Shown: one piece after another, positions 10,031 to 32,943 of the stretch
Layout of the letters: the number at the start of each line of letters is the position of its first letter
Position numbering within the stretch: position 1 is the first letter of the stretch
NCBI RefSeq assembly: GCF_055900595.2
Contig: NZ_CM148325.1
DNA: 64,000 bases
Strand: one strand, 5' to 3'
The notes under the pieces: model-generated
Databases searched by the model: none
Seen by the model: the letters and a program-made list of their open reading frames with translations, nothing else
Told to the model about the DNA's origin: nothing
Translations under genes and position numbers: made by a program

Positions 10031-11245
10031 ATGGAGAGTGACCCGATGCTGACCGATACCAAACTGAAAAACCTCAAAGCGCGGGAAAAACTTTATAAAG
10101 TTGCAGACCGTGATGGGCTGTATGTAACCGTATCTCCCAAGGGATTGGTGACGTTTCGCTATGACTATCGAATCAATGGTCGTCGTGAAACGTTAACTAT
10201 TGGTCGCTATGGTGACGGTATTTCTCTGGCGCAGGCGCGCGAAAAATTAGTGGAAGCCAAAAAACGCGTAAATGCAGGAATATCGCCCGCTGGAGAGAAG
10301 CGTGACGGTAAAACAAAGCGAAAAGAAGAAAAGACACTCCACGATTTTACCGTCAGCTACATGAAACACACCCGGCTGGCGGACAGCACAAGGGCGATGA
10401 AGCAAAGCATTATCGACAGAGACATCACGCCAGTATGGGGGCGCAAGCTGCTGTCAGAGATAACCCCCTCTCTCCTACGTGAGTATTGCGACAAGATAAA
10501 AGCGCGTGGTGCGCCAGCGACGGCGATTCAGGTTCGCAATATCGTTAGTGCGGTATTTAAGTTCGCCGCGCTTCACGGCGACTATTACCCCAATCCTGCC
10601 GAAGAGGTTTTACCGGCTTCAATTGCGACATTCGAAGCGCGCGACAGGGCGCTCAAGCCAGAGGAGATAGGCTGGTTTTTCAATCAGCTTGAACAAACGG
10701 GTACATTACCCACCATCAAGCTGGCCATTAAATTGGTTTTATTAACGATGGTACGTAAAAGTGAACTGCTGAACGCTCCGTGGGGTGAGGTTAATTTTAA
10801 TGCCTGCCTTTGGACGATTGACGCCAGCCGGATGAAGGGATCACGGGATCATAATGTTTATCTGTCCCGGCAGGCACAGGACATTCTGATTGCCCTGAAA
10901 ATGTGCGCAGGAAGCAGTGATTGGGTTTTGCCTTCATGCAATCAGTCGTCGCATAAGACCATGTCGGCGGCGACCTTAAACCGGGTCATTAATCTTACGG
11001 TTAAGCAGGCGCAGGAACGGGGGATCAGGCTGGCGTCGTTTTCCGTTCACGATATGCGCCGAACGGCATCGACGTTATTGCATGAGGCGGGGTTTAATTC
11101 CGACTGGATAGAAAAATGCCTCGCGCACGAGGAAAGAAGCGTCAGAGCCGTTTATAACAAAGCGGAATACGCAGAGCAGCGCCGTGATATGTTGCAGCAG
11201 TGGGCGGATATGGTTGATGGGTGGATCAAGCAATACCGCCCGTAA
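10031..11245 (+). CDS. int: Tyrosine recombinase, P4-type phage integrase
   Basis: N-terminal arm-binding region DGLYVTVSPKGLVTFRYDYRINGRRETLTIGRYG and C-terminal catalytic HDMRRT ... AVYNKAEY (HxxR ... Y) typical of P4/CP4-57 integrases; true start may be the Met at about 10046. Confidence 0.9.
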   Translation: MESDPMLTDTKLKNLKAREKLYKVADRDGLYVTVSPKGLVTFRYDYRINGRRETLTIGRYGDGISLAQAREKLVEAKKRVNAGISPAGEKRDGKTKRKEEKTLHDFTVSYMKHTRLADSTRAMKQSIIDRDITPVWGRKLLSEITPSLLREYCDKIKARGAPATAIQVRNIVSAVFKFAALHGDYYPNPAEEVLPASIATFEARDRALKPEEIGWFFNQLEQTGTLPTIKLAIKLVLLTMVRKSELLNAPWGEVNFNACLWTIDASRMKGSRDHNVYLSRQAQDILIALKMCAGSSDWVLPSCNQSSHKTMSAATLNRVINLTVKQAQERGIRLASFSVHDMRRTASTLLHEAGFNSDWIEKCLAHEERSVRAVYNKAEYAEQRRDMLQQWADMVDGWIKQYRP

Positions 11246-11248
11246 GTA

Positions 11249-11503
11249 CTATGCGGGGATCTTGGTACCAGAGCGCTTTGGGACTTTGGCCAGATTTTTC
11301 TGTACCGCGTTATCAATATGGTGATGGTTATTTTCCTGCCGTGCTTTGAGCCAGCGTTCCACTTCCTCTTTGTCCCACGCGACGGCGCGCTTCGTTAGCG
11401 CAAAACGTTTGGGAAACAGGCCTTTTTGCTCCAACGCATAAATCGTACTTTCAGAGAGTGGCACCATCTGTAAAAGCACGTTTTTTCTAATGGCAATTTT
11501 CAT
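11249..11503 (-). CDS. alpA: AlpA/Vis-family excisionase-type transcriptional regulator
   Basis: Motif LSESTIYALEQKGLFPKRFALTKRAVAWDKEEVERWL matches the AlpA family; adjacent to int. Confidence 0.7.
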   Translation of the reverse strand: MKIAIRKNVLLQMVPLSESTIYALEQKGLFPKRFALTKRAVAWDKEEVERWLKARQENNHHHIDNAVQKNLAKVPKRSGTKIPA

Positions 11504-12314
11504 TGTTTATTCCTTTAATCCAAAGGCACTCAGTTCTGATAACAGATCCTTTTTTACCAGCAGCGGCAGATTGCTTTGTCTCTTTACGCCAGCCGGTTAG
11601 CAAATCGTTATACATTTCGGTGTCGTAGCCGCTGATAACCACGCTTCCTTGTAACCGGGTGACGGTCTCCAGTAAGCGCAGGTGGGCACCATCGTCCATT
11701 TCGTGGCGATAATATTTGTTAGTCAGATTACGGGTGCTATGAACATACGGCGGATCGACAAAATGCAGCGTGTCGGCGGCGTCATGATCCAGAATACACT
11801 GGATGGCATCGCGGTTTTCCACCAGAACCCCTTCAAAACGCTGACCAACGGCGGCCAGATTATCGGGCATACGGCTCCAGATGTGTTGGGCCGTTCCACT
11901 GGCGCGTTTAGTGTCCAGCCGAAAGCCGGTAGTGCCTTTAGTTGCCCCGGCAGAACCGAAGCCCATCGTGGCGCGAATCACTAAACGCCTTGCCTGTTCA
12001 ACAGAATTTTTCCCATAGCGATAGGCCGAAATAAACTCGGTGCGGGAATAGGGTGTCAGGCTGCAGGCTTCAACCAGTCTTTCGCGCAGTTGTGGGGTAC
12101 GAAGAACGGCGAACAGGTTAACGACGTCGCCATCCAGATCGTTGTAAACCTCGGCGTAGCTACGTGGTTTTCTGAGCAGTACGCTGGCTGCACCGCCGAA
12201 GGGTTCCACATAGCATCTGTGGGCCGGAAAGTGGCTAATGATCCACGGAGCTAGTCGCCACTTGCCGCCGTGGTAGCGGATTGCAGGGTGCTTAATCATC
12301 CAGTTTTTCTCCAC
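11487..12314 (-). CDS. DNA adenine (N6) methyltransferase, Dam family (copy 1)
   Basis: SAM-binding motif YVEPFGGAASVLL and catalytic DPPY (FVDPPYVHSTRN). Confidence 0.8.
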   Translation of the reverse strand: MEKNWMIKHPAIRYHGGKWRLAPWIISHFPAHRCYVEPFGGAASVLLRKPRSYAEVYNDLDGDVVNLFAVLRTPQLRERLVEACSLTPYSRTEFISAYRYGKNSVEQARRLVIRATMGFGSAGATKGTTGFRLDTKRASGTAQHIWSRMPDNLAAVGQRFEGVLVENRDAIQCILDHDAADTLHFVDPPYVHSTRNLTNKYYRHEMDDGAHLRLLETVTRLQGSVVISGYDTEMYNDLLTGWRKETKQSAAAGKKGSVIRTECLWIKGINNENCH

Positions 12315-16580: not shown

Positions 16581-17153
16581 ATGAAGTTGAATAATCTGGT
16601 TGCTCTTTACAGGAACATGACAGAGCAAAAATTGGATAGGGTTAAATTCCCATACAGACACAATAATTTACATTTTGATGTATTTTTCTTTATTGATGGA
16701 AAACCGTTTGAGCTTCTTTTCGGAGCATTAGGCGCTAATCTTTGCTTTCGTCTAAAAGTCGAGAAGGGATTCGTCATAAATCCTAATCTGGGAAGTGAGA
16801 CTTATAAAGAATTATGCAAGGCGCTAGGTTTGAAATATGACCCTGCCAATCCATTTAGAACAAGTAAGTTTTTTGAAGATTTTGATGGGAAAATCCCTAC
16901 ATCGGTTACTGTTAAGAATAAGGCAAAATATACTGATATTGCTGTGCATGTCAGGGATGTTGAAGAAGCAGACAGAATATATTTCTGTGGATGGAAAAAC
17001 AACAATGAAGAAAAGAGTCATGTTACTGAAGATAATTTAAAGAAAACGAAAGAGTTTTTAGGGTATCAGGCTTTTCTTGTTTGTAAGGAAAAGAATATTA
17101 GCAGTAGATGGACTGATTTAGAAAATAAAGCAAAAGATTTTTATTTACCATAG
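16581..17153 (+). CDS. Hypothetical protein (cassette gene 1), no recognisable motif
   Basis: 190-aa ORF with RBS ggagg upstream, AT-rich codon usage, 40 bp downstream of the HTH gene. Confidence 0.5.
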   Translation: MKLNNLVALYRNMTEQKLDRVKFPYRHNNLHFDVFFFIDGKPFELLFGALGANLCFRLKVEKGFVINPNLGSETYKELCKALGLKYDPANPFRTSKFFEDFDGKIPTSVTVKNKAKYTDIAVHVRDVEEADRIYFCGWKNNNEEKSHVTEDNLKKTKEFLGYQAFLVCKEKNISSRWTDLENKAKDFYLP

Positions 17154-17167
17154 GATTGTGAGGTTAT

Positions 17168-18316
17168 ATGTCTGATATTTCATTAGGGTGCGTGGTTGTT
17201 CATAGGTTGATAAAAGAGCAACATAAAGATTTCGATCACTCAAAACCATATAGTCGCCGTGATACGGTTCTTGACCGAAATAATGAAATCGTAATTAAAC
17301 TAGTGTCCAGTATAGCCGCATTGTATGGTAAAAAATCTAATAGCTCGCATTATGGTATATTTAATTTAGATGAAACACGCAGGGGGCCTTTTCCAGCGGA
17401 ATTTGATAAATATCGGAATGATACATCCAAGAAGTTAGACGATGAATTGTTTATAGGATTATCAAAAAATGTTATGCATCAGTTATATATTGAGGCAAAG
17501 GATCGACCTGCTGCATCAGGAGGATTACTTCTTTTTGCTGATTATATCAGTAAATCCGTGCGTTACTTTCTTATTGCAATGATTAAGCAAAAGGAAGGTA
17601 TAGTTATTAGTGATAAATTAGAGCCAAAGGAGTTAGAGCATCTTGATCTGGCAAAACTAAACCAGGCGGCACGAATAAACTATGATTTGTATGATAAATA
17701 TATTTCCGCTGATGAGAATGAAAGACAGGATGTTAATTATTTAAGTTTTGTTAGTCCCAGTTCTAACCAGACAACTTCAGGGTATTTCATTACTGCCTTA
17801 GGTTGTGATAAAGGTAATACATCAACTAAAGCTACGAGTAATTTAATTAATGAATCTTTTAACTTCTTCAGAAATCATCAAGAATTAAAGGATAATGCCC
17901 GTAAATTTAAAAATGAAATTATTGAGTATTTATTCGATTGTTCTGAAAATAACATTTCAGCTAAGCTCTCTGTTGTTAGTGAGATGGCGGCGAAGCATAT
18001 GGTTAATTTAGAAGATGACATTAAAGATAAATTGTCAGAAGAATTATATGCTCATTTGAATAGTGAAAGTATTCGTGTGCCTGTGGAATTTAGGGTAAGC
18101 AAATCAGTAGTTAAGAAAAACAGAAATATTAAATATACAAGTGATAATGTTAATTTTGAGTTTAAATCTAGTTTACTAGGCAATACTCTTGATAATGAGA
18201 TATGCTATAATAAGAAAACTGGACATTTAACTTTTACTCGGATTACTCCTGAGAAAAAAAGTGAAATAGCTCAATTGCTTGATGAGTTAATAAAAGAAAG
18301 AAATAGCGAAAAATAA
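17168..18316 (+). CDS. NdpA/YejK-like nucleoid-associated-protein family member (cassette gene 2)
   Basis: N-terminal VVVHRLIKEQH and SGGLLLFADYISKSVRYFLIAMIK align by eye with YejK IALHQLIKRDE and [24 protein letters not shown] (sequence recalled from memory); further colinear similarity towards the C-terminus. Confidence 0.5.
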   Translation: MSDISLGCVVVHRLIKEQHKDFDHSKPYSRRDTVLDRNNEIVIKLVSSIAALYGKKSNSSHYGIFNLDETRRGPFPAEFDKYRNDTSKKLDDELFIGLSKNVMHQLYIEAKDRPAASGGLLLFADYISKSVRYFLIAMIKQKEGIVISDKLEPKELEHLDLAKLNQAARINYDLYDKYISADENERQDVNYLSFVSPSSNQTTSGYFITALGCDKGNTSTKATSNLINESFNFFRNHQELKDNARKFKNEIIEYLFDCSENNISAKLSVVSEMAAKHMVNLEDDIKDKLSEELYAHLNSESIRVPVEFRVSKSVVKKNRNIKYTSDNVNFEFKSSLLGNTLDNEICYNKKTGHLTFTRITPEKKSEIAQLLDELIKERNSEK

Positions 18317-18318
18317 GG

Positions 18319-18957
18319 TTGCTTAATATGTCATGTTTTGAAACGGTTGTTGAGCTTTTCAGATATGTAGGGCGTCCTAAATTTGATGCTATTAATAATC
18401 GTTTTTCAGCAACTATTTCTTATGATGCTCATATATATGAACTCTTAGTTTCTTTGCAACCTCATACAGCGTGGGGAGAAATTGAAGAGATTGTCATTGA
18501 TGATGTGGATATAGATGTTGATGATAGCCTTCCCGCTAAAGGAACATCAATAACACTGACAATCTCTATATCAACTGGAGCTAGTGAGTCATTTTTTATC
18601 GATATTAAAGATCTAATTCAAAAGTCTCCGATGTTAAATAGAGGTATTTTAAGAAAGTCTTTTTACTTGGTTGAGGAAGATTTTTATTTTAATGAAGGAA
18701 TGGTTGAGGGATTAGCAAAAATACCAGAACTATCTGTTTTAAAGAATCTTTGTGATTTTATTTTATGTCTATCAAAAGTTGCACACTACAGCAATAGTAA
18801 AAGTGATGATGTATGCCATAAGTTAGTTTTCTTGAAAAATACTAATGCTAAGTCATTACCTTTAATTATTGAAACTAATGTTGATTATTCACTTCTTTTA
18901 ACAGGTATTAAGGATTTAAAAATCATCGAATCTTTTTCTGATGAAAAAAAGCTATAA
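18319..18957 (+). CDS. Hypothetical protein (cassette gene 3)
   Basis: 212-aa ORF starting 2 bp after gene 2; acidic stretch IDDVDIDVDD; no recognisable motif. Confidence 0.5.
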   Translation: MLNMSCFETVVELFRYVGRPKFDAINNRFSATISYDAHIYELLVSLQPHTAWGEIEEIVIDDVDIDVDDSLPAKGTSITLTISISTGASESFFIDIKDLIQKSPMLNRGILRKSFYLVEEDFYFNEGMVEGLAKIPELSVLKNLCDFILCLSKVAHYSNSKSDDVCHKLVFLKNTNAKSLPLIIETNVDYSLLLTGIKDLKIIESFSDEKKL

Positions 18958-19001
18958 CGGATGATAATTATTTTGAGCGAAAAGGGATTTTCATTAATAC
19001 G

Positions 19002-19583
19002 GTGGTCGATTTTCTTGAATCAATCGATGTAAAGAAACAGTTTCATTTTTTATTCTGTGAGTGGGATGAATTTCTAAAACTATACCATAATAACCTCGGT
19101 GTATATCTTAGTGGTTTTTCATTTCATAAAGTAAGAAAGGAAGTGGCAGAGGCAGAAGCTAATTTAGCTGAGCGTTTTTCAAAAATAATGTCAGACATGA
19201 TAGCTAAGCTTTTAGGTATTCCTGTTTCTTTGGTTGCTACTTTTGGCATGATAAAATTAAATACCCTGCCGGAAATGTTAGTGGTTTTTTTAGGTGTATT
19301 GCTCACGTCGATAATTATGTTTTTTATTGTAAGAAGTCAATACACACAGTTTAGGATGATTTGTGATGCTAAAGATATTATATTTTCCCCATTAGTGAAA
19401 AAATCTGTAGGTTATACAGAAGATTTGAAAAAATTAGTATGCAATGCAAAGGATAATTTAGACAAAAATCAGGTCATGTTAAATCGTTACCTTCTTTTCT
19501 TTCAATGCTTATGCTGGATTCCGACAGCCTTAGGTGGTGGAATGATCTTAATGGCTATTATGGTTCATTTAGGATTACTATAA
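19002..19583 (+). CDS. Predicted membrane protein with two hydrophobic helices (cassette gene 4), putative effector
   Basis: Hydrophobic segments LLGIPVSLVATFGMI ... LVVFLGVLLTSIIMFFIV and LLFFQCLCWIPTALGGGMILMAIMVHLGL; 3' end overlaps the convergent gpD stop by 6 nt. Confidence 0.5.
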   Translation: MVDFLESIDVKKQFHFLFCEWDEFLKLYHNNLGVYLSGFSFHKVRKEVAEAEANLAERFSKIMSDMIAKLLGIPVSLVATFGMIKLNTLPEMLVVFLGVLLTSIIMFFIVRSQYTQFRMICDAKDIIFSPLVKKSVGYTEDLKKLVCNAKDNLDKNQVMLNRYLLFFQCLCWIPTALGGGMILMAIMVHLGLL

Positions 19584-26204: not shown

Positions 26205-26963
26205 TTAATTCAGGATAATCAGTTCTGATGTGGTGCTGGCTGGCTTTCCACCTACGGTATAGCGAATCCCTACCGTTGAGAATGTCAGGCCGTGGAAGAT
26301 ATCGCGCATTTCCGGGATGTCGTTAACCGAGATAATCATCCGGCCCTGCATGGTGCGCGCCAGCTCTGCCATACGCTGGTACTGCTCAAGGCCAAATGGT
26401 ACGCCGTAGCCTTCGGTTTTCCAGTATGGTGGGTCGCAGTAGAACAGGGTATGCGGGCGGTCATAGCGGCGAATACAGTCGGCCCAGTCCAGATTTTCAA
26501 TGCAGACGCGCGCCAGCCGCAGATGGGCGGCGGATAAATCCTCTTCCATACGCAGCAGGTTCAGGCGCGGCGGTGAGGTGGTGGCGGTACCGAACGTGCG
26601 ACTTTCCACTTTGCCGCCGAATGCCAGCTTTTGCAGATAGTAGAAGCGCGCCGCGCGCTGGATATCGGTCAGCGTTTCTTCCGGGGTGATCTGGAGCCAG
26701 CGGTACATTTCGCGGCTGACCAGCGACCATTTAAACTGGCGGACAAACTCTTCTAAATGGTGCTGAAGTACGCGGTAGAGGTTGGTAACGTCACCGTTGA
26801 TATCGTTCAGCACCTCGGCCTGTGCGGGCTGTTTCATAAAGAACAACGCTGCCGCCCCGCAGAACGGTTCAACGTAGCAGCGGTGTTTGGGAAACAGTGG
26901 CAGAATGTGTTTTGCCAGCCTGCGCTTACCGCCGATCCACGGAATAACGGGTAACGTATTCAA
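26205..26963 (-). CDS. DNA adenine (N6) methyltransferase, Dam family (copy 2)
   Basis: YVEPFCGAAALFF and FYCDPPYW motifs; sits at the position of the P2 Z/fun accessory locus between tfa/G and FI. Confidence 0.8.
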   Translation of the reverse strand: MNTLPVIPWIGGKRRLAKHILPLFPKHRCYVEPFCGAAALFFMKQPAQAEVLNDINGDVTNLYRVLQHHLEEFVRQFKWSLVSREMYRWLQITPEETLTDIQRAARFYYLQKLAFGGKVESRTFGTATTSPPRLNLLRMEEDLSAAHLRLARVCIENLDWADCIRRYDRPHTLFYCDPPYWKTEGYGVPFGLEQYQRMAELARTMQGRMIISVNDIPEMRDIFHGLTFSTVGIRYTVGGKPASTTSELIILN

Positions 26964-27427
26964 ATTGTCAATTTTCCAGACCGACTGCTGACCAACGCAT
27001 ACAGCAGATTAGGAGACCAGCGCCAACTATCGCGCAGGTGCAGAAATTCGGCGCAGAACTCGCTGCAAAACAGGCGTTCCTGTTTACCCTGACTGAGTAA
27101 CACAAAACCCATGGCGCCCAGCCAGTCGTAACCTTTATCGTCGTGCTGACGAAAAAAGGTTTCCAGTGCCAGCGGATCGGCGTTGATCGGGAGTAAATCC
27201 CATTTCTCAATCGGCAGCGGCATTCGTTTGCTGCGCACGCCTTTATCCCGTACCGATGATGAGTAACAGATAAACAGGCCATCCGGCAGGCGTTCGACCA
27301 GTTCGCAGTGAGAGTAAGGGCCGCGCGTGACCTGTCGCGTCAACCAGTCGGAGAGCCGGGCAAGGCTGAAAAAGCGTTCAGCCCGGCCACGGTAGAACGC
27401 CATGTAAACCTGACTCATGGTTGCCAT
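26960..27427 (-). CDS. Hypothetical protein, possibly permuted-papain/NlpC-P60-like (His-Cys pairs); function unknown
   Basis: 155-aa ORF overlapping the Dam start by 4 nt; motifs SHCELVE and FCSEFCAEFLH; family assignment is only a guess. Confidence 0.35.
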   Translation of the reverse strand: MATMSQVYMAFYRGRAERFFSLARLSDWLTRQVTRGPYSHCELVERLPDGLFICYSSSVRDKGVRSKRMPLPIEKWDLLPINADPLALETFFRQHDDKGYDWLGAMGFVLLSQGKQERLFCSEFCAEFLHLRDSWRWSPNLLYALVSSRSGKLTI

Positions 27428-28122
27428 CCTGATGAGTAGTCGTAACCCATAACCGCCTGCACCTCCGTCAACGCTTCAACGGCGGCAATATGCTGCTGGG
27501 CAGCGGCGAACAGGCGCATATCGTGCGCCATTGTTTCGGTTTCAAACCGGGCGGCGATCTCGTTGGTTAGTTCAATCAGGTTGTGATTTTTGGTCTGCCA
27601 CATTAAGCCTGCCGGTATTTGTTTAGCCACGCCCATTTTGGTGAGCGAGAGCTGCTGGATGCGGCTGTTAGCGTCGCTGTGGAAATGGTGATTATCGATG
27701 ATGATGTAGTCAGCGGTGATTCGATCGCGATACTGCTTTATTTCTGCCACCTTTGCCTGTCGGGCTTTTTCGATATCGGGCTGCCAGCGTTTGCCGTCCC
27801 AACGGACAAAGGCGTTATCGGGCTTCAGCAGAGTGACGTTATCCGGCAATGGCCCCAGATGATGAAGCTGTACCTCACTGCCCGCATCGGTATCAAACGC
27901 GGTTTTACCGCGATGATCTTCTACCGCAAGCCATGTTTCTCCGTTGAATGTCAGGGCAAAGCCGCTCTGGCATTCGGGCGGTTCGATAGTGGTACAGCAT
28001 TCCGGTAAGCCGGTGTTGGGGGCGATATAGGCGTCGCTGACGCCGATAAATTCCTGAGTATCTGCCGCGTAGTTAAAGATGCGCAGGGTTTGCGGTTCGT
28101 CGGAAAATGCGAATGTGCTCAT
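27415..28122 (-). CDS. G: Tail fibre assembly protein (P2 gpG/Tfa-like)
   Basis: 235-aa ORF directly downstream of the tail fibre gene; composition typical of Tfa chaperones. Confidence 0.7.
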
Positions 28123-29780
28123 GCCAGCCTCACGATATAGTTGAAAGCGATATTTTTAACGGTGTTTTCGGTGTTCCCGGCGGCATTCACCGTAATAGTG
28201 TGGCTGTGGGAACCCAAGGCGATAGCGTGGTTATGCGCGCCGATAGTCAGCGAATGGGTATGAGCGCCGATGGCTACTGTGTGAGTATGGACACCGTCTG
28301 TACTGGTTCTGAATTTGTAGTTATCCCAGTCTGTGTCTGCAGACCCCTGATTATTACGGGTACTGTCGAAGTAACCGTGACGTCCACCGCTGGCTTCACC
28401 CCATCCGCTGTCGTGGTTGTGAGCACCGGCTGACGCTGTTGATTTTGTCCCGTAGTCAAACGCGCTGGTATTTTTAGTACCCAAATCGGTGGAACTGGCA
28501 GTTTTAGTGCCTAAATCTGTGTTAGTGGCGCTGGCTGTGTGACTATGAGATTTAACGCCATCCTGTTCCTGAGACAGTATCGAGCGTCCGCTGGCGGGTT
28601 TCCCCTTGATTGTCCAGCCGCGCATATCCGGGATTACCCCAGAGGGGTAAGCGATTGCCAGTTTAGGGTAGGCGGTTTTATTGAAGGACTGACCGACCAT
28701 CAGGGCGTAGCCGCTGGGGATTGCATCGGATGACCACGGTATCGGCGTGCCGACCGGACAGGTTTCCGCCGCCAGCGCTTTGTCTACTGCCGCTTTCACC
28801 GCCTTGGGCGTGGCGGCCAGTGTTTCGCTGGTGCTGTCGATGGCGCTACTAAGCTGGACAATCCCTTTACGCGCCGTGGTGGCATCCTGCGCGGTATATT
28901 TGCCATTAGCCATATCGTAGGCCGCTTTCACCGCCTTGGGCGTGGCGGCCAGTGTTTCGCTGGTGCTGTCGATGGCGCTACTAAGCTGGACAATCCCTTT
29001 ACGCGCCGTGGTGGCATCCTGAGCGGTATATTTGCCATTAGCCATATCGTAGGCCGCTTTCACCGCCTTGGGCGTGGCGGCCAGCGTTTCGCTGATACTG
29101 TCGATGGAGCTACTAAGCTGGACAATCCCTTTACGTGAGGTGGTGGCATCCAGTGCGGTATATTTTCCATTAGCCAGATCGTAGGCTGCTTTCACTGCTT
29201 TGGGCGTGGCGGCCAGTGTTTCGCTGATGCTGTTGGTCGCACTGCTTAATTGAGTAAAACCTTTGGCAGTTAACGTGGCGTCAGGATGGTTACGGGACTG
29301 CACGTGGCACGTCAGGCTTTCATCCACATACTGTCTTGTTGCCAGCACCACGGCAGGGTCGATTTTCAGCTCCACGTTTTCCGTATGGGAGACAATCAGC
29401 ACCATGCGGATAATCTGCGTGCGGCCCGAACCTTCGATTAACTGCGGCTTGTAGGTTGGCGGGCAGTTGCCGACGGCAATCAGCCGGTCGTGCTCGTCGT
29501 ACAGGCCAATTTCTCTGATCCACCATCCGCCTACATCCTCCGGTAGTACCTGTTCGGCAATAATCTGGTTGGGGTTGTTAGGGTCAATACTGAGCGTATT
29601 CAGCGGCGCACGTCGGCGTTCGTTGATTAACCGGGTTTGGCCAGTCTCCGGTGTTGGCAGGTTACCGTTTCCGTCGCCCACGGCCATTTGCGTCAGATGA
29701 AGAGGTGAACCCTGTGCGGTGGCGGTCGCCAGCGCGGATTCGCCGGTAGTGGTTAATAGCGTGAAATAGGTAGCGCTCAT
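28119..29780 (-). CDS. H: Tail fibre protein (P2 gpH-like)
   Basis: Conserved N-terminus [51 protein letters not shown]; variable C-terminal half with 44-aa tandem repeats and His-rich tip. Confidence 0.8.
28780..29290. repeat. About 3.8 tandem copies of a 132-bp (44-aa) repeat within tail fibre gene H
   Basis: atccctttac recurs at 28861, 28993 and 29125; protein repeat [44 protein letters not shown]. Confidence 0.8.
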
Positions 29781-30391
29781 GGGGCGATCCTTAGCGTATC
29801 AATCAGATGCAGCGCAGCCCCGCGGTAGTTACGGCCCACGCTGTATACATGTTCGGGAATAAAGGGATAAACGGTGAGCGTATCGCCGGTATAGTTCGTC
29901 GCGCTGAACCAGACGTATCCGTTGCTCTGCAGGCTGATCGCCAGTCCGATTAAGTGGCGTGAACAGGGTTTGGCATCATCGATCAGGCGCTCCAGCTCCA
30001 CATACATCTGCTCGGTGATGCCCTGTTCGCGCACGCCGACCTCCAGTGCGAAGGTGCCGGGAATACCTTCCGGGCGCAGTTGCCACCATTCGGTTACCCG
30101 GATAAGGAAACCGAGCGGTTCCACCGCACGTTGCAGTGCGCCGATGGTGCCTTTGTGCTGATGGATGTAGAAAGAGGCGGCAATCACCTGCCGCTTGGTA
30201 TCGACTGGCCAGTTTTCATCCCAGCGGTCAACGGAAAACGCCCATGCCAGATAAGGCAACAGCGCGGCGGGGCAGCTACCCGGTTGCCACAAGCTACGCA
30301 GCGGGACTGGCACTTGTTCAGTCAGGCTGCCGGTTTGTGCCAGATTCTGCTCCAGCGGGCTGGCATTGTTGGGGAGCAGGGAGCTATTCAT
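29777..30391 (-). CDS. I: Baseplate assembly protein I (P2 gpI-like)
   Basis: Start chosen at [15 protein letters not shown] immediately after the J stop (ORF track extends to 30460). Confidence 0.75.
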
Positions 30392-32347: not shown

Positions 32348-32683
32348 TTAACCGTGCGCAGCCTTCATCAGTGTATCGTTAATCCACTGGTTAACGCTTT
32401 TACCGGAGACTTCTGCCGCAACGTTAATGGCAGAGTGAATTTCAGGTGGAATACGCAGGCTGATTTTTCCGCTGGCCGGACGCAACGGCTCCCGGCCCCG
32501 TTCCTCGCAGTAAGCCAGATAGTCGTCTACCGCCTCTTCAAACGCTTTACGCAGATCGGCAACATTATCGGCATGAAAGCCAATGACATCCCGAATGCCT
32601 GCAACGTGACCAACAATGCATTGATCTTCATCGCTGTATTCAATTTTTGCGGCATAGCCTCTATATGTCATGGTATTCATCAT
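32348..32683 (-). CDS. hicB: HicB-family antitoxin
   Basis: N-terminal HicB-like region YRGYAAKIEYSDEDQCIVGHVAGIRDVIGFHADNVADLRKAFEEAVDDYL plus C-terminal ribbon-helix-helix ISLRIPPEIHSAINVAAEVSGKSVNQWI; overlaps hicA by 4 nt. Confidence 0.7.
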   Translation of the reverse strand: MMNTMTYRGYAAKIEYSDEDQCIVGHVAGIRDVIGFHADNVADLRKAFEEAVDDYLAYCEERGREPLRPASGKISLRIPPEIHSAINVAAEVSGKSVNQWINDTLMKAAHG

Positions 32684-32943
32684 GGTGTTACCCCTACAGC
32701 TTCAAGGAATGTTCTGGCATCGCGAACCTGATAGGCTTTCGCTTCTTTTTCCGGGTGTGGACGATGAAATGAAGCCACAACCTGATTAATTTCAAACCTG
32801 ACGCGGGAACCGTTTCCTTCCGTAGCAATAGCCCCCAAAGCAATAAATAAGGCTTCTATTTTTCGCCATTCCAGCGTGACAGGTGTTGGCGTAGAAAAAA
32901 CAGCTTGTAAGGTTTTTTTATGTTTGGCGCTTAACGTATTCAT
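32680..32943 (-). CDS. hicA: HicA-family mRNA interferase toxin
   Basis: GNGSRVRF ... HRPHPEKE pattern resembling the HicA G.H / RHP core; paired with HicB. Confidence 0.6.
   Translation of the reverse strand: MNTLSAKHKKTLQAVFSTPTPVTLEWRKIEALFIALGAIATEGNGSRVRFEINQVVASFHRPHPEKEAKAYQVRDARTFLEAVGVTP

What the first reader, a model, noticed from the sequence alone, without database searches (positions are those of the whole stretch)
28780..29290. Tandem 132-bp repeats in tail fibre gene H
Nearly four copies of an in-frame 132-bp unit (44 aa) form the shaft region of the fibre. Such repeats allow length variation by slipped-strand or recombination events and may tune receptor reach or host range.
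Basis: seen in the sequence. Interest (0 to 1): 0.3.

Follow-up and report, generated by a model that had tools for sequence, protein, structure and literature searches.

The report
Tail-fibre shaft repeats, variable copy number
The repeats are real: four 44-amino-acid "phage tail fibre repeat" modules in the shaft of a P2-type prophage tail fibre of E. coli, a well-known feature, and nearly identical prophages in other strains carry one to four modules, so fibre length does vary.

Summary
Observation confirmed. A 132-bp in-frame tandem array (about 3.7 units, window 28789-29282, minus strand) lies in a 553-aa gene at 28119-29780. The protein is a mosaic P2 gpH-type tail fibre: a PF12571 N-domain, four PF03406 units, a collar domain and a T4 gp37-like HxH needle tip. 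It sits in J-I-H-tfa order in an apparently complete P2-like E. coli prophage.

Units 2-4 are near-identical in DNA, with exact runs of 62 and 101 nt. Unit 1 is about 75% identical to them. In prophages with 0-3 SNPs over 12 kb of flanks, alleles with 1, 2, 3 and 4 units exist. All differ by exact multiples of 132 bp, and their hybrid junctions lie in shared exact stretches.

The 1-unit allele and two 2-unit alleles have junction k-mers absent from a 4-unit template, so they are real. The 3-unit alleles and one 2-unit allele cannot be told from short-read assembly collapse. A sister lineage in finished genomes shows independent duplication.

Four units dominate, and none with more than four was found. 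No effect on reach or host range has been shown; the lineages differ in specificity-type sequence only at a tip cassette (28244-28436). This is a known kind of feature and of modest interest.

The parts
28119..29780 (-). Tail fibre gene (P2 gpH type), 553 aa
   Evidence: ORF. Pfam PF12571, 4x PF03406 and PF07484. P2 gpH is 72% identical over aa 24-319. The exact protein is on 186 contigs and named 'tail fiber protein'.
29331..29780 (-). N-terminal baseplate-attachment domain (aa 1-150, PF12571)
   Evidence: Pfam E 3.6e-62, profile positions 1-150 of 150. This is the only part modelled with confidence by AlphaFold2.
29151..29282 (-). Repeat unit 1 (aa 167-210), the old diverged copy
   Evidence: 75-77% nt identity to units 2 and 3, with 13-14 synonymous and 10 non-synonymous codon differences.
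29019..29150 (-). Repeat unit 2 (aa 211-254)
   Evidence: 8 of 132 nt differ from unit 3.
28887..29018 (-). Repeat unit 3 (aa 255-298), a chimera of the front of unit 4 and the back of unit 2
   Evidence: Identical to unit 4 over nt 1-98 and to unit 2 over nt 67-128. This is the product expected from an unequal exchange in a 3-unit array.
28755..28886 (-). Repeat unit 4 (aa 299-342); only 28789-28886 is repeat and the tail [11 protein letters not shown] is unique
28608..28751 (-). Collar domain (aa 344-391, PF07484)
   Evidence: Pfam E 2.7e-09. Aligned to the T4 gp37 collar in 2XGF.
28122..28766 (-). T4 gp37-like collar, needle and tip (aa 339-553) with six HxH motifs
   Evidence: phmmer against PDB entry 2XGF_A, E 3.2e-67, chain residues 27-242.
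28244..28436 (-). Hypervariable tip cassette, the presumed receptor-binding tip
   Evidence: 42-62% nt identity to the sister prophage of strain L725, against 93-98% everywhere else in J-I-H-tfa.
27415..28122 (-). Tail fibre assembly protein (Tfa/gpG-like), 235 aa
   Evidence: Pfam DUF4376 E 9e-13 and Caudo_TAP E 1.2e-4. Caudo_TAP_N appears in the precomputed hits.
29777..30391 (-). Baseplate protein gpI (204 aa as called in related loci)
   Evidence: Pfam Tail_P2_I E 4e-51. Gene calls in L003 and L014.

Best explanation
The array is four tandem copies of the 44-aa 'phage tail fibre repeat' (Pfam PF03406). They form the shaft segment of a P2 gpH-type trimeric tail fibre in a P2-like E. coli prophage. 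The array lies between the baseplate-binding N-domain and a collar plus T4 gp37-like needle tip, and the tip carries receptor specificity.

Units 2-4 are near-identical in DNA. Misaligned homologous exchange or replication slippage between units therefore adds or removes exactly 132 bp (44 codons). Each event keeps the reading frame and the module register, and leaves hybrid units whose junctions lie in shared exact stretches. Natural alleles with 1-4 units result.

Shown here: the identity of the gene and modules, the DNA anatomy, and the allelic series with its junctions. Inferred: that each unit is a self-contained trimeric shaft module, so that unit number sets shaft length, and which recombination pathway acts. 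Not shown: any effect on adsorption or host range.
For: Identity:
- PF03406 gives 4 stretches, 246.8 bits against a cut-off of 22; PF12571, Collar, Tail_P2_I, Baseplate_J and Tfa are also found.
- 2XGF gp37 tip matches at E 3e-67.
- P2 gpH is 72% identical over aa 24-319.
- The prophage is complete-looking, with integrase, primase, tail, lysis, capsid, terminase and portal genes.

Anatomy:
- Exact runs are 62 and 101 nt at lag 132, 27/27/32 nt at lag 264, and 27 nt at lag 396.

Allelic series:
- Proteins of 421, 465, 509 and 553 aa differ only in unit number.
- Gene flanks differ by 0-1 nt, and 12 kb of flanks by 0-3 SNPs.
- Deletions of 396, 264 and 132 bp have junctions of 27, 27, 10, 32, and 62 or 101 nt that coincide with those exact runs.
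- The 1-unit allele (13 contigs, from NCBI and Logan) and two 2-unit alleles contain junction k-mers absent from a 4-unit template at k = 31, or k = 21 for L009. They cannot be assembly collapse.
- The 1-unit carriers share private SNPs with one 4-unit haplotype (L010). The 2-3-unit carriers share the other (L011). This indicates independent events.
- In the sister lineage in finished genomes, L725 has U2 = U3 identical over 132 nt with a 257-nt exact run, while GMF054 has three diverged units.
- Other family members also have runs of identical units.
- 44-aa spacing is conserved family-wide.
Against: - The 3-unit alleles (31 contigs) and the P0007 2-unit allele (6 Logan contigs) can be spelled entirely from k-mers of a 4-unit genome. 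The junctions become novel only between k = 63 and 77 (L006), between k = 99 and 127 (L014), and between k = 33 and 55 (P0007/L007), so those alleles may be collapse artefacts.
- Twelve of 13 'partial' proteins break inside units 2-4, showing that assemblers struggle at this array.
- No allele with more than 4 units was found in this lineage.
- No reads were available, so within-culture heterogeneity and rates are unknown.
- The fold and the length increment of a unit could not be obtained. Both AlphaFold2 attempts gave pLDDT 32-41. No paper I could read describes the fold of that segment, and I did not inspect the coordinates of 5YVQ, 8JU3 or 9KI1.
- My choice of loci was by allele, so event counts are ascertainment-biased.
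Confidence: 0.85

Rival explanations
1. The variation is real but functionally unimportant. Contractions are neutral or mildly harmful accidents that accumulate in a dormant prophage, not a means of tuning reach or host range.
For: - The 4-unit allele dominates, with 186 contigs against 13 (1 unit), about 10 (2 units) and 31 (3 units).
- The shorter alleles sit on haplotypes 0-3 SNPs from 4-unit ones, so they are recent tip-of-tree variants.
- Relatives hold 4-5 units, suggesting selection for a set length.
- The only strongly divergent segment between the sister lineages is the tip cassette, not the array.
Against: - Independent expansion or homogenisation in two lineages and in other family members shows that arrays are rebuilt as well as eroded.
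- The 1-unit allele persists in 13 assemblies from different samples.
- No functional data exist either way.
Confidence: 0.45
2. The apparent copy-number differences are short-read assembly artefacts, and every genome really has four units.
For: - The 3-unit and P0007 2-unit alleles contain no junction k-mer absent from a 4-unit template at the lower k values tested: L006 through k = 63, L014 through k = 99, P0007/L007 through k = 33.
- The 2-unit alleles are found only in Logan assemblies.
- Contigs of the same size and context carry different alleles.
- Twelve of 13 partial proteins break within the array.
Against: - The 1-unit (L003-5), L008 and L009 alleles contain junction k-mers that a 4-unit genome cannot supply at k >= 31, or k >= 21 for L009.
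- The 1-unit allele was recovered by different assemblers and sources in 13 contigs.
- Finished genomes of the sister lineage differ: 4 homogenised units against 3 diverged units.
Confidence: 0.08
3. The main role of the conserved repeat DNA is to act as a homologous linker where different phages exchange distal fibre modules, with length change a by-product.
For: - PF03406 units are shared by the lambda Stf, Mu S and P2 H classes; tblastn with the whole fibre protein matched 1280 phage records, though those matches are not all to the repeat.
- P0005 keeps units 1-2 and then switches inside a third, divergent unit to an inserted ~170-aa domain before the same tip.
- Homology to 710- and 652-aa fibres is interrupted right after the array.
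- Another E. coli fibre gene shares the array DNA at 78% identity (H4).
Against: - The tip swap between the window and L725 lies more than 300 bp downstream of the array, bounded by needle sequence rather than by the repeats.
- 78% identity is poor substrate for RecA.
- This does not explain the within-lineage 1-4 series.
Confidence: 0.2
4. The array is a contingency-like locus. Frequent, reversible gain and loss of units creates heritable fibre-length heterogeneity in each lysate as bet-hedging against variable surface layers.
For: - There are several independent contraction junctions in a near-clonal prophage.
- The 3-unit allele exists in two junction versions.
- Units are homogenised in two lineages.
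Against: - No rate data and no read-level heterogeneity are available.
- Four units predominate strongly.
- No allele above 4 units was found.
- The unit is 132 bp, not a simple-sequence tract, and all states are in frame, so there is no on/off switch.
Confidence: 0.1

Closest known systems
Pfam PF03406 (Phage_fiber_2, 'phage tail fibre repeat'; InterPro IPR005068), as found in lambda Stf, Mu gpS and P2 gpH
   Same: All four units match the family far above threshold. The period is 44 aa, and the protein is a tail fibre with a downstream Tfa chaperone.
   Different: Units 2-4 here are almost identical at the DNA level, reflecting recent duplication or homogenisation. Typical arrays are conserved in protein but diverged in DNA, as seen for unit 1 and for GMF054.
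Bacteriophage P2 tail fibre gpH with assembly protein gpG
   Same: It shares the N-domain and repeats (72% identity over aa 24-319), the V-W-J-I-H-G gene order and a P2-family capsid and tail.
   Different: The distal half is not P2-like; it is a collar plus T4 gp37-type needle. The Tfa carries a DUF4376 domain. Extra genes (a 155-aa ORF and a Dam methylase) lie between tfa and the sheath gene.
T4 long tail fibre tip gp37 (PDB 2XGF)
   Same: aa 339-553 align to chain residues 27-242 at E 3e-67, with a collar domain and six HxH motifs.
   Different: The tip segment (about aa 449-512) is unrelated and differs even from the sister prophage. The adjacent chaperone is Tfa-type, not gp38. The T4 gp38/gp57A requirement is from my own knowledge.
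Length-variable Col and PCoil domains of E. coli O157 prophage fibre proteins (EPclA-D; PMC3368898)
   Same: In prophage tail-fibre stalks, paralogues differ in length by whole repeat units, in multiples of 3 or 7 residues. Some of those proteins also contain a PF03406 unit.
   Different: The units there are collagen triplets and coiled-coil heptads. Here the unit is a 44-aa module, and the variation is seen among alleles of a single locus.

Membership tests
PF03406 Phage_fiber_2 repeat | Match to the family HMM above the gathering score | tested here: met
   246.8 bits against a cut-off of 22, E 6.9e-75, 4 stretches.
PF03406 Phage_fiber_2 repeat | Serial units of about 40-44 aa in a phage tail fibre protein | tested here: met
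   Units lie at aa 167, 211, 255 and 299. The spacing is exactly 44 aa here and in relatives.
PF03406 Phage_fiber_2 repeat | Defined 3-D fold of the unit in a trimer | tested here: inconclusive
   AlphaFold2 gave pLDDT 41.5 for the monomer and 32.3 for the pseudo-trimer. Mu gpS is the only PDB sequence with the unit, and the papers read do not describe that segment.
P2 gpH-type tail fibre | PF12571 N-terminal domain and homology to P2 gpH | tested here: met
   PF12571 E 3.6e-62. P2 matches at 71.6% identity over aa 24-319.
P2 gpH-type tail fibre | Synteny: baseplate V-W-J-I upstream and Tfa (gpG) downstream | tested here: met
P2 gpH-type tail fibre | Homotrimeric fibre assembled on the baseplate with the help of Tfa | not testable with these tools
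   This needs biochemistry or electron microscopy.
T4 gp37-type needle tip | Sequence homology to the collar, needle and tip of 2XGF, with HxH motifs | tested here: met
   E 3.2e-67 over aa 339-553. Six HxH motifs can be read directly in the sequence.
T4 gp37-type needle tip | Metal (iron) coordination by the HxH motifs | not testable with these tools
   Inferred only from the conserved motifs.
Bacterial/phage contingency (simple-sequence phase-variable) loci | Short (1-10 bp) hypermutable tract whose length change switches the frame or a promoter on and off | tested here: not met
   The unit is 132 bp, and all alleles (1-4 units) remain in frame.
Invertible-segment host-range switches (Mu G, P1 C) | Alternative fibre C-termini flanked by inverted repeats with an adjacent invertase | tested here: not met
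   The genes next to H are tfa, a 155-aa ORF and a Dam methylase. No invertase or second fibre/tfa set was seen. Inverted repeats were not searched for specifically.

The most novel reading that the evidence does not exclude
The array behaves as a fast, reversible length switch. Within a single lysogen population or lysate, units are gained and lost often enough that virions with different shaft lengths coexist. This would give a P2-like phage a bet-hedging way to reach outer-membrane receptors through O-antigen or capsule layers of different thickness, independent of the tip sequence.
Probability: 0.1. Interest if true: 0.55.

Novelty: already known. Interest (0 to 1): 0.25.

Why it matters
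The biological gain is small. The result gives a clean natural allelic series of 1-4 shaft modules on an otherwise identical fibre and prophage. That is ready-made material for testing whether fibre length affects adsorption or host range.

The practical point is that this array breaks or may collapse short-read assemblies. Fibre lengths and 'partial' fibre proteins in draft E. coli genomes should therefore not be taken at face value. The same caution applies to fibre-based host-range prediction and to engineering of P2/R-pyocin-type fibres.

Tried and rejected
(1) An AlphaFold2 monomer model of the whole fibre with a 26-sequence alignment gave pLDDT 41.5, and only the N-domain was confident. 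It was not used for fold search.

(2) A pseudo-trimer (3 copies of aa 145-352 joined by Gly/Ser linkers, 9-row alignment) gave pLDDT 32.3. I rejected it. The only weak hint was short strands followed by a ~12-residue helix in every unit.

(3) I looked for an experimental structure of the unit. A profile search of the PDB finds only Mu gpS residues 111-153. The Mu, phiTE, Sf14 and Pam3 papers do not describe that segment.

(4) An exact look-up of ten constructed alleles covered three expansion designs with 5-7 units and other 2-3-unit recombinants. Only the 1-2-4 three-unit allele exists in the collection.

(5) Literature searches for copy-number polymorphism of this repeat found nothing specific.

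(6) There is no Chi site between 20 and 36 kb of the window, only 7/8 matches inside the array. I rejected Chi as an explanation.

(7) No alternative coding on other frames or strands is possible across the array.

(8) A PADLOC scan of neighbouring cargo genes gave no defence-system hits apart from the methylase.

Full report
OBSERVATION

Tandem Repeats Finder reports one strong array at window 28789..29233: period 132, 3.4 copies, 94% matches, no indels, score 778. The repeat finder gives three 212-nt copies spaced exactly 132 nt apart at 100/98/87% identity. The array lies on the minus strand inside a 553-aa ORF at 28119..29780. Only that reading frame is free of stops across it.

Phasing by the protein gives four units:
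- U1: aa 167-210, window 29151-29282
- U2: aa 211-254, window 29019-29150
- U3: aa 255-298, window 28887-29018
- U4: aa 299-342, window 28755-28886

Only the first 98 nt of U4 belong to the repeat. The tract is therefore 28789-29282, or 3.74 units.

WHAT IT IS

Pfam finds PF12571 (phage tail-collar fibre N-terminal domain, aa 1-150). It also finds four stretches of PF03406 (Phage_fiber_2, 'phage tail fibre repeat'; 246.8 bits against a cut-off of 22) and a Collar domain at aa 344-391. Against solved structures, aa 339-553 match the T4 gp37 fibre tip (2XGF) at E 3e-67, including the HxH needle motifs. The repeat matches Mu gpS. P2 gpH itself is 72% identical over aa 24-319.

The neighbours are gpI (Tail_P2_I), gpJ, gpW and gpV upstream, and a Tfa-type assembly protein (DUF4376 plus Caudo_TAP) downstream. 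The element also carries an integrase, a Toprim primase, sheath, tube, tape measure and gpD genes, lysis genes, a P2-family capsid, terminase and portal. It spans roughly 10-44 kb of the window.

So this is gene H of an apparently complete P2-like E. coli prophage. It encodes a mosaic fibre: a P2-type proximal part with a PF03406 shaft array, and a T4 gp37-type distal needle. The exact protein is on record on 186 contigs, including finished chromosomes, and is named 'tail fiber protein'.

ANATOMY OF THE REPEAT DNA

U3 and U4 are identical over 98 nt, and U2 and U3 differ at 8 of 132 nt. U1 is only 75-77% identical to U2 and U3, with 13-14 synonymous and 10 non-synonymous codon differences. U1 is therefore an old copy kept by selection on the protein, and U2-U4 are recent.

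U3 is a chimera: the front of U4 (nt 1-98) joined to the back of U2 (nt 67-128). That is the product expected from an unequal exchange in a three-unit array. The exact-match runs between registers are as follows:

| Lag | Exact runs |
|---|---|
| 132 nt | 62 and 101 nt, separated by one mismatch |
| 264 nt | 27, 27 and 32 nt |
| 396 nt | 27 nt |

TEST OF COPY-NUMBER VARIATION

The closest database proteins are 421, 465, 509 and 553 aa. A second series with another tip runs 459, 503 and 547 aa. Both series step by 44 aa. The sequences show 1, 2, 3 or 4 units on an otherwise identical protein.

I fetched the DNA for each allele. The gene flanks differ from the window by 0-1 nt in 1,134 nt. Twelve kb of surrounding prophage differs by 0-3 SNPs. 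The deletions are exactly 396, 264 or 132 bp, and their junctions coincide with the exact runs listed above:

| Allele | Junction (exact match) |
|---|---|
| 1 unit (L003) | 27 nt |
| 2 units (L008) | 27 nt |
| 2 units (L009) | 10 nt |
| 2 units (L007) | 32 nt |
| 3 units (L006) | 62 nt |
| 3 units (L014) | 101 nt |

The 1-unit carriers share private SNPs with one 4-unit haplotype (L010, a finished chromosome). The 2- and 3-unit carriers share the other 4-unit haplotype (L011). The contractions therefore arose independently from a 4-unit ancestor.

ARTEFACT CONTROL

The window protein's 90% cluster contains many 'partial' proteins, and 12 of 13 break inside U2-U4. Short-read assemblers clearly fail at this array. 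I therefore asked whether each shorter allele can be spelled entirely from k-mers of a 4-unit template.

- The 1-unit allele (13 contigs from NCBI and Logan) and the L008 2-unit allele have novel junction k-mers at k = 31. L009 has them already at k = 21. A de Bruijn contig can only contain k-mers present in the reads, so these junctions are real. That Logan uses k = 31 is from my own knowledge.
- The L007/P0007 2-unit allele has no novel k-mers through k = 33 and has them at k = 55.
- The 3-unit allele L006 has a junction that becomes novel only between k = 63 and k = 77. L014 has none through k = 99 and has them at k = 127.
- These last three cannot be distinguished from assembly collapse. 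The 3-unit allele occurs in two junction versions (T or G at gene nt 759).

Independent support comes from finished genomes of the sister lineage. Strain L725 has four units, with U2 = U3 identical over all 132 nt and a 257-nt exact run. Strain GMF054 has three clearly diverged units, with a longest exact run of 32 nt. Several other H-family fibres also carry runs of identical units.

No allele with 5, 6 or 7 units of this lineage exists in the collection. Short-read assemblies would probably hide such alleles, so this absence is weak evidence.

HOW IT MOST LIKELY WORKS

The following are shown. The array is the PF03406 shaft segment of a gpH-type fibre. Its near-identical units undergo exchange in register, which changes the gene by whole 44-codon modules and leaves hybrid units.

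The following are inferred. The events are RecA-type unequal exchange or RecA-independent replication slippage between sister copies; both are established mechanisms for tandem repeats of this size (own knowledge), and they were not discriminated here. Each unit is inferred to be an autonomous trimeric module, so that unit number sets shaft length.

Any consequence for receptor reach or host range is not shown. Three observations argue against a large adaptive role:
- Four units dominate: 186 contigs against 13 with 1 unit, about 10 with 2 units and 31 with 3 units.
- Relatives keep 4-5 units with strictly conserved 44-aa spacing.
- The window and the L725 prophage are 93-98% identical across J-I-H-tfa, including the array. 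The exception is a ~190-bp cassette at 28244-28436 (42-62% identity), which is the needle tip. Specificity-type divergence maps there.

STRUCTURE

Both AlphaFold2 attempts failed for the shaft, with pLDDT 41.5 for the monomer and 32.3 for the linker-joined pseudo-trimer. A profile of the unit finds only Mu gpS residues 111-153 among PDB sequences. The papers I could read do not describe that segment. A 2012 paper states that little is known about the Pf2 domain. The fold and the rise per unit remain open.

COMPARISON AND NOVELTY

The feature is a member of PF03406 within a P2 gpH-type fibre, and every testable defining feature was met. It is not a simple-sequence contingency locus, because the unit is 132 bp and all alleles stay in frame. 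It is not an invertible-segment switch, because no invertase or second fibre set is adjacent.

Length variation of prophage fibre stalks by whole repeat units is documented for the collagen and coiled-coil domains of E. coli O157 fibre proteins (PMC3368898). I found no paper on copy-number polymorphism of PF03406 arrays. The 1-4-unit series is therefore a small new observation within a known kind of feature.

VERDICT

The novelty rating is 'already known' and the interest is about 0.25.

Noticed in passing
window 28244-28436 (minus strand, about aa 449-512 of the fibre): A hypervariable tip cassette. It is the only segment of J-I-H-tfa that differs strongly (42-62% against 93-98% nt identity) from the sister prophage of E. 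coli L725. It lies within the gp37-like needle, flanked by conserved HxH repeats, and is probably the receptor-binding tip.
   Followed up: partly
window 32348-32943 (minus strand): A HicB/HicA toxin-antitoxin pair is inserted between tail genes S and V. The same slot holds an 'abortive phage resistance protein' in L725 and a hypothetical gene in GMF054. This looks like a moron or defence hotspot inside the tail operon.
   Followed up: partly
window 26205-27427 (minus strand): A D12-class Dam methylase (PADLOC MTase_II, E 1.6e-114) and an unknown 155-aa ORF with no Pfam or PADLOC hit sit between tfa and the sheath gene. They are conserved in all related prophages fetched.
   Followed up: partly
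window 16581-19583 (plus strand): A cargo block lies between gpD and the primase: DUF6037, an NA37-like nucleoid-associated protein (382 aa) and two ORFs with no family hit. None matches PADLOC. It may be an uncharacterised accessory or defence island of the P2-like element.
   Followed up: partly
window 11487-12314 (minus strand): A second D12-class adenine methylase lies next to the integrase (10031-11245), so the prophage carries two Dam-like methylases.
   Followed up: no
window 28465-28521: A short 30-bp-period repeat (1.9 copies, 81% matches) encodes [20 protein letters not shown] in the needle region of the fibre.
   Followed up: no
proteins P0122-P0135 (cluster of the window protein): Dozens of draft E. 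coli assemblies end contigs inside units 2-4 of this array. Twelve of 13 'partial' fibre proteins break there, so copy number is unknown for many genomes.
   Followed up: yes
protein P0123 (226 aa; 39 contigs, longest 5.76 Mb): A C-terminal piece of the fibre starting inside unit 4 is annotated as a complete protein on many contigs, including a chromosome-sized one. This may reflect a frameshifted or truncated H gene in some finished genomes.
   Followed up: no
L012:1-1380 (GCA_964257775.1): In one genome the same prophage carries an IS605-type insertion (TnpB-like plus Y1 transposase) in its lysis region, while the 4-unit fibre gene is intact.
   Followed up: no
proteins P0018, P0102, P0020, P0022, P0025: Other H-type fibres of E. 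coli contain runs of three or four identical 44-aa units. Unit duplication or homogenisation therefore recurs across the family.
   Followed up: partly
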